Shown: positions 11,455 to 14,044 of the stretch, piece after piece
Layout: every line of letters begins with the position of its first letter
How positions within the stretch are numbered: position 1 is the first letter of the stretch
Source of the DNA: Shigella phage Sf19
Direction: 5' to 3' (one strand)
DNA: 64,000 nt
Sequence record: MF327005
The notes under the pieces: model-generated
What the model saw: only the letters and a program-made list of their open reading frames with translations
Database searches by the model: none
What the model was told of the DNA's origin: nothing
Translations under genes and position numbers: made by a program

Positions 11455-12870
11455 ATGAGCGAATTATTTAAGCACTCGCATTTACATGCAGGTTTAACTG
11501 AAAATGGTGCTGTTAACCACACCTCTTCAATGTCTGCACTGGTAGATTTCTACAAAGCTGCTGGTTCAAGCAGAACAAATGTAGAGGTTCTTCCAAACTT
11601 GTTTTACAAGGCAATGCGAGAAGATATTGATGTAGCAGTTCGAATCCTGTTACATATGCGAGATGCACGAGAAGGTATGGGTGAGCGTAAAGCGTTCCGT
11701 TATACTCTTACTAAAGCAATCTCTGACGGGATTCTTGATGAGTTCCAAGTATTACGTATCATGGACAAGATTTCTGATTTAGGTCGTTATGATGACTTTA
11801 AAATCTTTGTTGGTACACGTTACGAAACAGATGCTTTCAAGCATTTAGAATCGGCACTGTTAGACCCTGCAACATCGGCTCTGGCAGCAAAATGGTTACC
11901 ACGAGTAAAATCACGACACATGCGTTTTGTTCGTCGTTTCTGTAAGTTTGCAAATCTTTCAGAGAAGCAGTATCGAGTTCTTCTGTCAGCACTGTCTGAC
12001 ACTGTTGAACAAAAGATTTCAGCAAATGAGTTCGGAGAGATTGATTACAGCAAGCTTCCTTCACTGGCTGCTGCACGTTATCAAAAACTCTTCAGTCGTA
12101 AAGATGGTGAGCGTTATGCAGCATACATTGCAGCACTGACTAAAGGTGAGACAAAGATTAATGCTGGTGCAGTCTACCCTTATGACATTACAAAGTCAGT
12201 CGGTTATGGTAATGCAACCGTTGCAAATGAGCAGTGGAAAGCTTTACCAAACTGGATGAAAGAGGGTGAGAACATTCTGTGCATGGCAGATGTATCTTCA
12301 TCTATGACTTGGGAGCGACATGGTTCTGTTACAGCGCTAGACATTGGTGTATCTTTAGCCCTGTACGTTTCAGAACGTAATACAGGTTGCTTTAAAGATG
12401 AATTGATGGTTTACTCTAGCAGACCTCACTTCATCACATTGAGTGGTGATTTACAGACTCGCTTACGTCAAGTGAAGAGTCATGTAGAGTATGGTTCAAC
12501 TGACCTACAAGCTGCTTTTGCAAGAATCCTTGAGATTGGTGTTAAAAACAACTTGACTCAGAAAGAGATGCCTAGTAAGCTTATCATCTTCTCTGATATG
12601 CAGTTTAATCAGGTTGATGGAGCAGATGGTCGTACTAACTTTGAAGCAATTCAAGAAAAGTACAAGAAAGCTGGATATGAGATGCCACAACTGGTATTCT
12701 GGTACTTAGCAAACCGTAACGGTACTTGCGAAGTGTCTGTAAAGGATAACGGTGTAGCGATGGTATCTGGTTTCTCTCCAGCCACTTTAAAAGCTTTGCT
12801 TGGTGGTGAGAAGTTTGACCCTATCAGCGTAATGCTCAAAGCAGTAATGGTTGAACGCTACGATTGGTAA
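11455..12870 (+). CDS. vWA-domain protein with MIDAS motif; possible Ro60/TROVE-like RNA-binding protein
   Basis: 471 aa; DVSSS (DxSxS MIDAS) at ~residue 279 followed by vWA-sized C-terminal domain; N-terminal ~270 aa helical domain. Confidence 0.65.
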   Translation: MSELFKHSHLHAGLTENGAVNHTSSMSALVDFYKAAGSSRTNVEVLPNLFYKAMREDIDVAVRILLHMRDAREGMGERKAFRYTLTKAISDGILDEFQVLRIMDKISDLGRYDDFKIFVGTRYETDAFKHLESALLDPATSALAAKWLPRVKSRHMRFVRRFCKFANLSEKQYRVLLSALSDTVEQKISANEFGEIDYSKLPSLAAARYQKLFSRKDGERYAAYIAALTKGETKINAGAVYPYDITKSVGYGNATVANEQWKALPNWMKEGENILCMADVSSSMTWERHGSVTALDIGVSLALYVSERNTGCFKDELMVYSSRPHFITLSGDLQTRLRQVKSHVEYGSTDLQAAFARILEIGVKNNLTQKEMPSKLIIFSDMQFNQVDGADGRTNFEAIQEKYKKAGYEMPQLVFWYLANRNGTCEVSVKDNGVAMVSGFSPATLKALLGGEKFDPISVMLKAVMVERYDW

Positions 12871-12888
12871 AAAGTTTTAAAAAGGGTA

Positions 12889-12917
12889 TTGACAAAGTGT
12901 TTAATACCCTTTAATAT
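12889..12917 (+). promoter_or_regulatory. sigma70 consensus promoter (TTGACA-17-TAATAT) inside an inverted repeat
   Basis: aaagggtaTTGACAaagtgtttaataccctTTAATATg; -35 lies in loop of 9 bp inverted repeat. Confidence 0.65.
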
Positions 12918-12978
12918 GTTCTACATAGAAACGAAAAAGAAGTTTTCTGAAATAAATCAAATTATTTTAAAAAACCTC

Positions 12979-13008
12979 TTGACAGACACTAAAAAATAGT
13001 GTTATAGT
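12979..13008 (+). promoter_or_regulatory. sigma70-like promoter (TTGACA-18-TATAGT) ahead of tRNA cluster
   Basis: cTTGACAgacactaaaaaatagtgtTATAGTt. Confidence 0.6.
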
Positions 13009-13035
13009 TGTTACATAGGTTGTTAAAAAGATTAT

Positions 13036-13112
13036 CTCCGTTTAGCTCAGTTTGGTTTAGCAGCACTTGCTTTGGGAGCAAGGGGTCGAAGGTTCAAATC
13101 CTTCAACGGAGA
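13036..13112 (+). tRNA. tRNA-Pro (anticodon TGG)
   Basis: 7 bp acceptor ctccgtt/aacggag, loop tttggga, GGTTCAAATCC T-arm, CCA encoded. Confidence 0.8.
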
Positions 13113-13121
13113 CCAAATTAT

Positions 13122-13196
13122 ATTCCCGTAGACAAATTAGGTAAAGTCAACACCCTTTCAAGGTGTGGTTTGAGGGTTCAAGTCCCTTCGGGAATG
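13122..13196 (+). tRNA. tRNA-Glu (anticodon TTC)
   Basis: acceptor attcccg/cgggaat, loop ctttcaa, T-arm GGTTCAAGTCC, CCA encoded. Confidence 0.75.
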
Positions 13197-13205
13197 CCAG
13201 TTTTG

Positions 13206-13276
13206 ACAGAAGACCAATTACAGCAAACAAACTTTTCAATTTCGCGCATAGAAATCCAAAAAAGATTTGGTCTGGT
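13206..13276 (+). ncRNA. structured element A: conserved termini CAGAAGACC...GGTCTGGT with AT-rich loop
   Basis: 5' cagaagaccaa pairs with 3' ttggtctggt; same termini as elements B-D. Confidence 0.5.
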
Positions 13277-13286
13277 CATTAAGAAT

Positions 13287-13358
13287 TGCGGGTATAGAGA
13301 AAGGGCGTCTCACATGTCTCATTAGCATGGTATCGGCAGGTTCGACTCCTGCACCCGC
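13287..13358 (+). tRNA. tRNA with CAT anticodon (Met or Ile-lysidine)
   Basis: D-stem gaga/tctc, anticodon arm catgt-ctcatta-gcatg, T-arm gcagg-ttcgact-cctgc. Confidence 0.65.
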
Positions 13359-13377
13359 CTCCAAATTTACAGAAGAC

Positions 13378-13447
13378 CGTTTACAGCAAACAAAACTTAA
13401 AATTTTATTGGAAAAATTTAAAAGAATACGGTCTGGTAATACTAAAC
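13378..13447 (+). ncRNA. structured element B (same family as A; stem agaccgt/acggtct)
   Basis: cagaagaccgtttacagcaaacaa...tacggtctggt; compensatory change relative to element A. Confidence 0.5.
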
Positions 13448-13449
13448 AT

Positions 13450-13522
13450 GGTTAGGAAGCACATAAGGCATGTGCGGTCGGCTGTTAACCGAATGGCACA
13501 GGGTTCGAATCCCTGACTAACC
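13450..13522 (+). tRNA. tRNA-Asn (anticodon GTT)
   Basis: D-stem gcac/gtgc, loop ctgttaa, T-arm caggg-ttcgaat-ccctg, CCA encoded. Confidence 0.7.
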
Positions 13523-13595
13523 GCCAAAATTTGGGAGAGAAGCGATTGCTCACCGATTTGTAAGGTGCAAGTCCTTAGCCTGAATAGAATAAAAT

Positions 13596-13680
13596 GCGTC
13601 GTTATCCCGTAGATGGAAGCGGTGGTGACTGTAAATCACTTGTCATTACGACTCGGTAGGTTCGACTCCTTCACGGCGCA
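13596..13680 (+). tRNA. tRNA-Tyr (anticodon GTA), long variable arm
   Basis: acceptor gcgtcgt/acggcgc, loop ctgtaaa, 85 nt, CCA encoded. Confidence 0.7.
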
Positions 13681-13689
13681 CCAAATAAA

Positions 13690-13763
13690 GGTTATGTAGT
13701 TTAACTGGTCAAAATACTCCCCTGTCACGGGAGATGATGAGGGTTCGAATCCCTTCGTAACCG
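13690..13763 (+). tRNA. tRNA-Asp (anticodon GTC)
   Basis: acceptor ggttatg/cgtaacc, anticodon arm ctccc-ctgtcac-gggag, T-arm GGTTCGAATCC. Confidence 0.8.
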
Positions 13764-13795
13764 CCAAATTTGAGAGGGCTTCTTAGCCCCTCCCT

Positions 13796-13822
13796 TAAAG
13801 AGTTCTTACGAGTATTCTTTAA
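13796..13822 (+). ncRNA. conserved hairpin with loop TTCTTACGAG (copy 1)
   Basis: aaagaGTTCTTACGAGtattcttt; second copy at 17373-17397 with compensatory stem change. Confidence 0.45.
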
Positions 13823-13826
13823 AGGA

Positions 13827-13904
13827 GCAGAAGACCAAATTCAGCAAGTCAATTTAATATTTCAAGCCAATTTAATTTTGAAAAATTTAAAACTTGGTCT
13901 GGTT
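13827..13904 (+). ncRNA. structured element C (same family as A/B)
   Basis: cagaagaccaaattcagcaagtcaa...cttggtctggt. Confidence 0.5.
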
Positions 13905-13915
13905 CCAACAAATTT

Positions 13916-14044
13916 ACAGAAGACCGTTTACAGCAAACAATAAACAATCTATTTCTCTGGTAAAGAAAAGGCGAAGGTTCGATTCCTTCACACGTTACGG
14001 CGTGTTGGTGTAATGGAAGCACTTAAGATAAATACGGTCTGGTA
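13916..14044 (+). ncRNA. structured element D: terminal stem of A-C family enclosing a permuted tRNA-like module (candidate Y-RNA-like ncRNA)
   Basis: cagaagaccgt...acggtctggt termini; internal GAAGG-TTCGATT-CCTTC T-arm, acacg-ttacgg-cgtgt closed acceptor-like stem, gtg-taatGGaag-cac D-arm-like hairpin. Confidence 0.55.

What the first reader, a model, noticed from the sequence alone, without database searches (positions are those of the whole stretch)
11455..14044. Candidate Ro60-like protein plus Y-RNA-like ncRNA at the head of the tRNA cluster
The 471 aa protein at 11455-12870 has a DxSxS MIDAS motif (DVSSS, ~residue 279) opening a vWA-sized C-terminal domain after a ~270 aa helical N-terminal domain, the same order as Ro60/Rsr (TROVE then vWA). 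About 1 kb downstream, element D (13916-14044) has the architecture described for bacterial Y RNAs: a terminal stem and an internal tRNA-like module. In bacteria Rsr and its Y RNA are encoded next to each other. A phage Ro60-Y RNA pair sitting in a tRNA cluster would suggest manipulation of host RNA decay or repair.
Basis: partly seen in the sequence, partly recalled or inferred. Interest (0 to 1): 0.85.

Follow-up and report, generated by a model that had tools for sequence, protein, structure and literature searches.

The report
Phage Ro60-like protein with Y-like RNAs
This Felix-O1-like phage encodes a ring-shaped Ro60-like RNA-binding protein and, hidden unannotated among its tRNA genes, four small RNAs (one with a rearranged tRNA-like core) that belong to a previously undescribed RNA family found next to this protein in many unrelated phages.

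The parts
11389..11417 (+). sigma-70-like promoter upstream of the Ro60-like gene
   Evidence: TTGACA-17-TAGAGT, 10 of 12 matches. Consensus match only.
11455..12870 (+). Ro60-like protein gene (471 aa): TROVE-like helical ring domain (residues ~1-265) plus vWA/MIDAS domain (~274-455). Pfam DUF2828+DUF7788, PHROG 850.
12889..13008 (+). two sigma-70-like promoters (12889-12917 and 12979-13008) at the head of the tRNA/element block
   Evidence: 10 of 12 and 11 of 12 matches, the second with an extended -10 TG. No + strand terminator-like site inside the block.
13204..13278 (+). element A: short Y-like RNA (bulged closing stem UGAC/GUCA + AGACCAA/UUGGUCU, motif UUACAGCAA, A/U-rich loop), 4 nt after tRNA-Glu and 8 nt before tRNA-Met
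   Evidence: R1 41.2 bits, E 1e-6; fold; motif
13367..13439 (+). element B: short Y-like RNA (UUAC/GUAA + AGACCGU/ACGGUCU, motif UUUACAGCAA), between tRNA-Met and tRNA-Asn
   Evidence: R1 50.0 bits, E 7e-9; fold; Rfam Dicty_Class_I 25.3 bits
13824..13906 (+). element C: short Y-like RNA with variant motif AAUUCAGCAAG (GGAGC/GUUCC + AGACCAA/UUGGUCU)
   Evidence: R1 36.7 bits, E 1.5e-5; fold
13914..14045 (+). element D: long YrlA-like RNA. Closing stem 13914-13917/14042-14045 and 13921-13927/14034-14040; motif UUACAGCAA 13928-13936; V (anticodon-arm-like) hairpin 13952-13968; T arm 13973-13989; acceptor-like closed hairpin 13990-14005; U8-G9 14006-14007; D arm 14008-14022
   Evidence: Rfam tRNA 28.8 bits on 13923-13997

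Best explanation
The ORF encodes a divergent Ro60-type ring protein, and elements A-D are its cognate Y-like small RNAs. Shown: the protein has the Ro60 fold with an intact MIDAS site. The four RNAs share a covarying closing stem followed by an unpaired UUACAGCAA motif. D carries a circularly permuted tRNA-like module in YrlA order (T arm, closed acceptor-like hairpin, U8-N9, D arm) with the canonical elbow nucleotides. The same RNA frame is genetically linked, on the same strand and within a few hundred nt, to the homologous protein gene in many unrelated phages, including ones with no tRNA genes nearby. Inferred: the RNAs are co-transcribed with the tRNAs from the promoters at 12889 and 12979. 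They would be released by the tRNA-processing enzymes, because A and B abut tRNAs within 3-10 nt. The protein would bind the stem plus UUACAGCAA, which takes the place of the GNCGAA bulged helix of canonical Y RNAs. D's tRNA-like module would then tether a host tRNA- or RNA-decay factor, as YrlA/Yrn1 tether PNPase and as phiLo Ro60-Yrl does with host PNPase, to reshape host RNA metabolism or blunt a defence system. The ortholog in Bas63 counters the Ppl defence.
For: Protein fold. The MIDAS residues D279, S281, S283, T349 and D381 are invariant. Full-length 33-35% identity to mycobacteriophage proteins annotated 'Ro-like RNA binding protein'. RNA structure within Ounavirinae. The middle hairpin reads ACACG/CGTGT in the window, ACTCG/CGAGT in FelixO1 and ACCCTTC/GAAGGGT in Michonne. 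Model R2, built only from Ounavirinae D, finds full-length matches beside the protein gene in distant loci: L021 51.6 bits E 8e-9, L071 49.1, mycobacteriophage L085 46.4, L069 38.7 and others, with 58 of 59 hits on the gene strand. In 24 significant matches, 93.3% of cells pair versus 29-44% slid, and 27 of 31 pairs show compensatory change. Model R1 (short frame): 75 of 75 hits on the gene strand; 50 hits at E < 0.01 in 38 of 66 distant loci; median 268 nt from the gene; 37 of 50 within 500 nt; no hit elsewhere in the 64-kb window. Rfam YrlA sub-threshold hits fall on three of the R2 hits. Elements occur without tRNA genes in L021, L085, L024, L036 and L070. Experimental context comes from PMC11482910, with orthology to Bas63 gp130 shown.
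Against: There is no direct evidence here of transcription, processing or protein-RNA binding. Pfam TROVE is not hit, and a profile of the family against PDB sequences gives Ro60 only at E = 1.1. Rfam YrlA and Y_RNA do not hit D, and the canonical GNCGAA(N)G Ro-binding motif is absent from the closing stem. D's own folding energy is unremarkable (z = -0.7). Bas63 gp130 alone, on a plasmid or in T7, rescues plaquing on Ppl, so the RNAs are not needed for that phenotype. About 28 of 66 distant loci gave no R1 hit at E < 0.01. Alignments A3 and A5 were selected for or fitted to the structure, and some loci are near-duplicates, so the counts overstate the number of independent events.
Confidence: 0.75

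Rival explanations
1. D is only a decayed tRNA gene (tRNA-Thr GGU-like), and A-C are inter-tRNA spacer repeats or processing signals. None of them has any relation to the upstream protein.
For: Rfam tRNA scores 28.8 bits on 13923-13997, 0.2 below gathering. A few GenBank records call the ortholog tRNA-Thr. The V hairpin has a 7-nt loop CUGGUAA like an anticodon loop. All four elements lie inside a tRNA cluster.
Against: In the tRNA reading the acceptor stem has mismatches and there is no D arm. In the permuted reading the D arm downstream is perfect and the middle hairpin covaries. The V loop is not conserved as an anticodon loop: FelixO1 has 6 nt and Michonne differs. The same frame and module sit next to the homologous protein gene in loci with no tRNA genes (L085, L021, L024, L036, L070). 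D probably descends from a tRNA, but it is conserved as a different structure.
Confidence: 0.07
2. The stem plus UUACAGCAA elements are cis-acting sites (autoregulatory operators, RNase processing or stability signals on the precursor or mRNA) rather than stable trans-acting Y-like RNAs.
For: In 18 of 50 distant cases the element lies just upstream of the protein gene, often within 200 nt, where a 5'-UTR operator would sit. There is no evidence of stable RNA species here. The protein works without the RNAs against Ppl.
Against: In the window the elements lie 330-1040 nt downstream of the stop codon, beyond two strong promoter-like sites, and are separated by tRNAs. There are multiple tandem copies per locus. 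Long members carry an elaborate, covarying tRNA-like module with conserved elbow nucleotides, and in 6 of 13 an encoded (N)CCA. That is unnecessary for an operator and typical of YrlA.
Confidence: 0.12
3. The protein acts as a vWA/MIDAS protein-protein inhibitor of a host defence such as Ppl. Its Ro60-like fold is an evolutionary leftover, and the neighbouring RNAs are unrelated to its function.
For: gp130 alone transfers Ppl resistance to T7. MIDAS sites usually bind protein ligands. There is no sequence-level TROVE signal.
Confidence: 0.06

Closest known systems
Bacterial/phage Ro60 (Rsr) with YrlA-type Y RNAs (Chen et al. 2014, PMC4201824; Rfam RF02553)
   Same: A ring protein with a helical-repeat domain plus vWA/MIDAS. 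The RNA gene is on the same strand within 4 kb. The RNA's 5' and 3' ends form a bulged closing stem. The internal module has the order V, T arm, closed acceptor-like hairpin, U8-N9, D arm, with tRNA elbow nucleotides. There is more than one Y-like RNA per locus, long and short forms, like YrlA and YrlB.
   Different: The protein is Pfam DUF2828/DUF7788, not TROVE. The closing stem lacks GNCGAA(N)G and is instead followed by unpaired UUACAGCAA. D gets no RF02553 hit, and its relatives reach only 33-38 of the 69 bits needed. The RNAs are embedded between tRNA genes.
Thermus phage phiLo phiRo60 with Yrl1/Yrl2 and host PNPase (PMC12135203; PDB 9KOP, 9L5Y)
   Different: phiRo60 is a TROVE-annotated protein. 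Its Yrls lie upstream, carry the CGAA motif, and were not reported to have a tRNA-like module.
Bas63 gp130 (PhageMaP preprint, PMC11482910)
   Same: A true ortholog: 83% identity over 471 aa with the same synteny. It was already described as structurally similar to Ro60 and shown to counter the Ppl defence.
   Different: The preprint only guessed that some annotated tRNA genes might be Y RNAs. The actual candidates are the unannotated elements A-D; in Bas63, D lies under the spurious ORFs g137/g138.
Dictyostelium Class I RNAs (Rfam RF01414; PMC7919456)
   Same: RNAs of ~60 nt. [quoted passage not shown] An unpaired conserved motif CCUUACAGCAA directly follows the 5' strand: 9-10 nt are identical and the invariant positions U3, C6, C9, A10, A11 all match. 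The remainder is A/U-rich and variable. The 3' end is ...CUG(U). It is the only Rfam family that repeatedly hits the short elements full-length (18-29 bits).
   Different: All hits are below the gathering score of 41.5. Class I RNAs are eukaryotic, have their own DUSE promoter, are reported as unique to Dictyostelia, and have a known direct binder that is an RRM protein (CIBP). No link to a DUF2828 protein has been reported or could be tested here.

Membership tests
Ro60 / Rsr (TROVE) protein family | Sequence match to Pfam TROVE (PF05731) | tested here: not met
   hmmscan at E <= 1 lists only DUF7788, DUF2828 and a chance Tachylectin hit. A family profile against PDB sequences gives Ro60 at E = 1.1 only.
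Ro60 / Rsr (TROVE) protein family | Ring of alpha-helical (HEAT-like) repeats closed by a vWA domain | tested here: met
Ro60 / Rsr (TROVE) protein family | MIDAS motif DxSxS...T...D in the vWA domain | tested here: met
   D279, S281, S283, T349 and D381 are invariant in 35 homologs. They align to DVSASM of Xenopus Ro60.
Ro60 / Rsr (TROVE) protein family | Binds Y RNA on the outer surface and misfolded RNA in the central cavity | not testable with these tools
   Needs EMSA, RIP or a solved structure.
YrlA-type bacterial Y RNA (RF02553) | Encoded within ~4 kb of the Ro60 ortholog on the same strand | tested here: met
   D starts 1,044 nt after the stop codon on the + strand. Homologs in other phages lie a median of 268 nt from the gene.
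YrlA-type bacterial Y RNA (RF02553) | 5' and 3' ends form a (bulged) closing stem | tested here: met
   97.6-99.5% paired, with 6 of 7 to 7 of 7 pairs showing compensatory changes. In the window it is a 4-5 bp stem, an AGA/G internal loop, then a 7 bp stem.
YrlA-type bacterial Y RNA (RF02553) | tRNA-like domain in the order T arm, acceptor-like stem-loop, D arm, with tRNA tertiary-interaction nucleotides | tested here: met
   T arm 95.5%, acceptor-like hairpin 95.3% (6 of 6 pairs covary) and D arm 100% paired. U8, A14, R15, G18, G19, A21 and G53-UUCGA-N-U-C61 are conserved.
YrlA-type bacterial Y RNA (RF02553) | GNCGAA(N0-1)G motif in the 5' strand of the Ro-binding stem | tested here: not met
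   The 5' strand reads UUUACAGAAGACCGU followed by UUACAGCAA. A GGCGAAG at 13969-13975 lies at the T-stem junction and is not conserved in FelixO1.
YrlA-type bacterial Y RNA (RF02553) | Score at or above Rfam's gathering threshold (69 bits) | tested here: not met
   D gets no hit even at E <= 10. Its homologs L021, L026 and L071 score 38.2, 35.8 and 32.9 bits.
YrlA-type bacterial Y RNA (RF02553) | Bound by the Ro60 ortholog; modified by TruB/DusA | not testable with these tools
   Experimental.
Dictyostelium Class I RNA (RF01414) | Short closing stem plus adjacent unpaired 11-nt motif CCUUACAGCAA, in an RNA of ~42-65 nt | tested here: met
   Elements A and B carry (N)UUACAGCAA right after a 7-bp stem and are 73-75 nt long. 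Distant short elements are 49-69 nt.
Dictyostelium Class I RNA (RF01414) | Score at or above Rfam's gathering threshold (41.5 bits) | tested here: not met
   The best score is 29.1 bits (L071). Window B scores 25.3 and A 21.3.
Dictyostelium Class I RNA (RF01414) | Dictyostelid gene with a DUSE promoter ~60 nt upstream | tested here: not met
   These are phage loci, with bacterial-type promoters and a tRNA-cluster context.

The most novel reading that the evidence does not exclude
The RNAs with a closing stem plus unpaired UUACAGCAA are the dedicated ligands of a second, DUF2828-type lineage of Ro60-like proteins that spans phages, giant viruses of protists and eukaryotes. On this reading, the enigmatic Class I RNAs of Dictyostelium (same frame, same motif, same 3' CUG; reported as unique to dictyostelids and of unknown mechanism) are the eukaryotic members of this RNA class. 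They would therefore be the Y RNAs of a DUF2828 protein, possibly the uncharacterised pull-down protein DDB_G0281243.
Probability: 0.25. Interest if true: 0.9.

Novelty: new variant of a known kind. Interest (0 to 1): 0.68.

Why it matters
Ro60-Y RNA particles are known from animals, bacteria and a few phages, always with TROVE-annotated proteins and CGAA-type Y RNAs. Here a much larger and mostly unannotated protein family turns out to have its own Y-like RNA family with a different recognition motif. The protein family has more than 700 phage genomes in GenBank and more than 2,400 protein clusters, and includes the classic Salmonella phage Felix O1, Listeria, Staphylococcus, Vibrio and Campylobacter phages, and giant viruses. 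This gives the Bas63 gp130 anti-Ppl phenotype concrete RNA partners to test. It shows that several small ORFs and one 'tRNA-Thr' in Felix-like genomes are mis-annotations of RNA genes. It shows that phages repeatedly place these RNAs inside tRNA clusters, where tRNA-processing enzymes can mature them. It also yields a testable hypothesis for the long-unexplained Dictyostelium Class I RNAs.

Tried and rejected
1. Sequence-only routes to Ro60 gave nothing usable: phmmer against PDB found nothing, the family profile against PDB gave Ro60 only at E = 1.1, and Pfam TROVE and NCBIfam gave nothing.
2. Rfam Y_RNA and YrlA on the window: no hit for D, even at E <= 10 on 201 nt.
3. A crude regex-plus-stem scan for the motif had a high background (control hexamers 15-25% versus 36%), so I replaced it with covariance models.
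4. D as a plain tRNA: rejected. ARAGORN does not call it, the acceptor stem is mismatched and there is no D arm in that register.
5. A host copy of D: none in 5,426 E. coli genomes.
6. The DUF5681 ORF upstream as a third component: conserved only in Ounavirinae, so dropped.
7. Testing whether Dictyostelium has a DUF2828 protein, or what DDB_G0281243 is: afdb50 is not installed, the Avesson 2011 paper is not held, and the literature search found nothing. Unresolved.
8. Chen et al.'s supplementary phage list is not held, so I could not check which of their 22 phages carry the DUF2828-type protein.
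Full report
WHAT THE WINDOW IS. The region is 96.6% identical to Shigella phage Sf17 (Ounavirinae, Mooglevirus) and 80-90% identical to some 300 Felix-O1-like genomes. The ORF at 11455-12870 is real (471 aa) and sits directly upstream of a block of 25 or more tRNA genes on the same strand.

THE PROTEIN. Pfam assigns DUF2828 (residues 171-269, E 5e-27) and DUF7788 (275-455, E 6e-44). PHROG 850 is labelled 'RNA-binding protein' (2.7e-178). There is no TROVE hit. Sequence searches against PDB are uninformative: phmmer finds nothing, and a 35-sequence profile gives Xenopus Ro60 as the top hit but only at E = 1.1, aligned at the MIDAS motif. 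An AlphaFold model built on that alignment is confident (pLDDT 87.8, pTM 0.88). It is helical to about residue 263 and alpha/beta thereafter.

So the protein is Ro60-like in fold but is not a sequence-level TROVE member. This is not new. [quoted passage not shown] I confirmed that gp130 is the ortholog: 83% identity over 471 of 471 residues, with the same synteny.

ELEMENT D. RNAfold on 13913-14050 gives, without any constraint, the following layout:
- a 4-bp outer stem, an AGA/G internal loop, and a 7-bp stem;
- then a hairpin UUUCU-CUGGUAA-AGAAA;
- a T arm GAAGG-UUCGAUU-CCUUC;
- an abutting closed hairpin ACACGU-UACG-GCGUGU;
- U-G;
- and a D arm GUGU-AAUGGAA-GCAC.

This is the order that Chen et al. 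define for YrlA: stem, V, T, acceptor-like stem-loop, D, stem. It is also the order of the Rfam YrlA consensus. The single-sequence energy is not exceptional (z = -0.7), so the case rests on comparison with relatives.

D is conserved in about 245 Ounavirinae genomes and is almost never annotated. Nine distinct orthologs give the same RNAalifold structure. The middle hairpin changes from ACACG/CGTGT to ACTCG/CGAGT to ACCCTTC/GAAGGGT while always pairing: 3 of 6 pairs show double changes, and 98.4% of cells pair versus 41-50% when partners are slid. Rfam's tRNA model scores 28.8 bits on 13923-13997, but with a mismatched acceptor stem and no D arm. That is explained if D is a circularly permuted tRNA derivative, opened between the D arm and the anticodon arm and with its acceptor ends joined by a loop. 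Rfam YrlA and Y_RNA give no hit on D, even at E <= 10.

D IS ONE OF FOUR. The motif AGAAGACCnnTTACAGCAA occurs at 13208, 13371, 13829 (variant) and 13918, against 0.22 expected. Each copy is closed by nnGGTCTGG and folds to the same bulged stem. The lower stem covaries between the paralogs: UGAC/GUCA, UUAC/GUAA and GGAGC/GUUCC. A and B fill the gaps between tRNA-Glu and Met and between tRNA-Met and Asn almost exactly. The four-element layout is conserved in Felixounavirus, Mooglevirus and Suspvirus.

THE FAMILY BEYOND FELIX-LIKE PHAGES. I fetched 80 IMG/VR loci encoding relatives of the protein, 65 of them at only 38-45% identity, plus a mycobacteriophage locus. In two distant loci Rfam YrlA gives sub-threshold hits (38.2 and 35.8 bits; gathering 69) immediately upstream of the gene on the same strand. 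Reading those sequences showed the same frame: a closing stem followed directly by (U)UACAGCAA.

A covariance model of 28 short elements (R1) was searched over 780 kb on both strands. It gave 75 hits at E <= 1, all on the protein's strand. Fifty hits at E < 0.01 fell in 38 of 66 distant loci, many of them not used in training. They lie a median of 268 nt from the gene, and 37 of 50 are within 500 nt. In the window it hits only A, B, C and the 5' part of D.

A second model, built only from the Ounavirinae D elements (R2), finds full-length matches next to the gene in distant loci. These include L021 (51.6 bits, 8e-9), L071 (49.1), mycobacteriophage Wigglewiggle (46.4, 1e-7), L069, L082, L039 and L026, with 58 of 59 hits on the gene strand. 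Three of these are the RNAs that Rfam YrlA had flagged, which links D to YrlA through intermediates. On the 24 significant matches, 93.3% of cells pair (29-44% when slid) and 27 of 31 pairs show compensatory changes. The T arm (95.5%), middle hairpin (95.3%, 6 of 6 pairs covarying), D arm (100%) and closing stem (97.6%) are all supported, and the tRNA elbow nucleotides are conserved.

Three caveats apply. A3 was selected for having stems. A5 is fitted to the model. Some loci are near-duplicates. The strand and distance statistics of the searches do not suffer from the first two. The elements also occur beside the gene in loci without tRNA genes (L021, L085, L024, L036, L070). That argues against their being mere tRNA-cluster furniture.

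MECHANISM. Shown: the fold, the RNA structures and the genetic linkage. Inferred:
- Transcription starts from the strong promoter-like sites at 12889 and 12979, and there is no + strand terminator in the block.
- The RNAs are released by tRNA-processing enzymes.
- The Ro60-like ring recognises the stem plus the UUACAGCAA motif.
- D's tRNA-like module recruits a host factor. This is by analogy with Yrn1/YrlA-PNPase and with phiLo phiRo60-Yrl-PNPase (PMC12135203).

The only phenotype known is that the Bas63 ortholog counters Ppl, and it does so even when expressed alone in T7. So the RNAs are not essential for that activity. They may serve another function, or they may be replaceable.

COMPARISON AND NOVELTY. 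A phage Ro60 with Y-like RNAs is a known kind of system (PMC4201824, PMC12135203). The Ro60-likeness of this particular protein is already published or annotated. What I could not find in Rfam 15 or in the searchable literature is the RNA side: the actual Y-like RNAs of Felix-like phages, and the widespread stem-plus-UUACAGCAA family with optional YrlA-type modules that accompanies the DUF2828-type protein. It fails two defining YrlA features, the GNCGAA motif and the Rfam threshold. I therefore call it a new variant rather than a member.

The only Rfam family that repeatedly matches the short elements full-length is Dictyostelium Class I RNA (18-29 bits against a gathering score of 41.5; local E 0.0011 for L071). 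That family shares the ~60-nt size, the covarying end stem, the unpaired CCUUACAGCAA motif at the same position, and the 3' CUG (PMC7919456). Whether this is homology, convergence on a similar protein ligand, or chance could not be settled here. I could not determine whether dictyostelids have a DUF2828 protein, or what the pull-down protein DDB_G0281243 is.

VERDICT. The protein part is already known. The RNA part is a well-supported new variant of the Ro60-Y RNA theme, and it comes with an intriguing but unproven link to Class I RNAs.

Noticed in passing
window 15131-15198 and 15216-15620: A tRNA-like sequence scores above Rfam's tRNA gathering score (32.6 bits versus 29) but is not called by ARAGORN. 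It sits just 5' of a 134-aa Cys/His-rich ORF with no Pfam hit; the corresponding ORF in phage SUSP1 is annotated HNH endonuclease. Homology to Sf17 stops at about 15126, which suggests a homing-endonuclease insertion in the tRNA cluster.
   Followed up: partly
window ~13596-13683: A tRNA-Tyr annotated in Sf17 and Bas63 (flagged as a pseudogene in the FelixO1 RefSeq record) is missed by ARAGORN and scores only 22.8 bits with Rfam tRNA. It may be an atypical or decaying tRNA.
   Followed up: no
L003 3409-3542; L021 4366-4513 and 4746-4885; L069 3089-3204 and 4114-4247; L039 6940-7074: In 6 of 13 relatives of D, the loop of the acceptor-like hairpin begins with (N)CCA right after the acceptor-3'-like strand, against ~0.6 expected. 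That is an encoded tRNA-like 3' end, reminiscent of M. smegmatis YrlA, which is cut by RNase P and receives CCA. The window's D and FelixO1 lack it.
   Followed up: partly
window 13952-13989: D's 'V' hairpin (7-nt loop CUGGUAA) plus AGGC plus the T arm looks like an anticodon arm (GGU, Thr), a variable loop and a T arm. The whole module therefore reads as a circularly permuted tRNA. This explains the near-threshold tRNA hit and the occasional 'tRNA-Thr' annotation of orthologs.
   Followed up: partly
L048 7191-7315; L078 3793-3919; L084 4614-4741: The same closing stem plus ACAGCAA frame can hold other cargo: a tRNA-like module in the normal D-anticodon-T order (L048), or an unrelated structured domain (L078, L084). 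This suggests a modular RNA family with exchangeable effector domains.
   Followed up: no
L089 (Bas63, MZ501086) 16749-17023: The minus-strand ORFs bas63_0137 and bas63_0138 overlie the C and D RNA elements (D ortholog at 16774-16915, 178.9 bits). They are probably spurious, so PhageMaP fitness data for g137 and g138 may actually report on the RNAs.
   Followed up: partly
L076 and L071 (IMG/VR contigs): In unrelated phages the homologous protein gene is again embedded in a large tRNA cluster (about 30 tRNAs in L076), with short elements interspersed between the tRNAs. The arrangement of Ro-like gene, Y-like RNAs and tRNA cluster is therefore recurrent, not peculiar to Felix-like phages.
   Followed up: partly
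L061 10287-10708: A phage contig that encodes the protein also carries a full tmRNA gene (Rfam 78.6 bits) followed by tRNAs.
   Followed up: no
window 11007-11378: A small basic DUF5681 protein gene (Pfam E 1e-13) lies immediately upstream of, and co-oriented with, the Ro60-like gene. It is conserved there in all Ounavirinae loci but absent from the distant loci, so it is not part of the conserved module.
   Followed up: yes
window 14443-14629: A weak hit to Rfam's permuted tmRNA model (28.4 bits versus gathering 47) starts inside tRNA-Ile and spans a strong promoter-like site at 14517-14545. It is probably driven by the tRNA, but I did not examine it.
   Followed up: no
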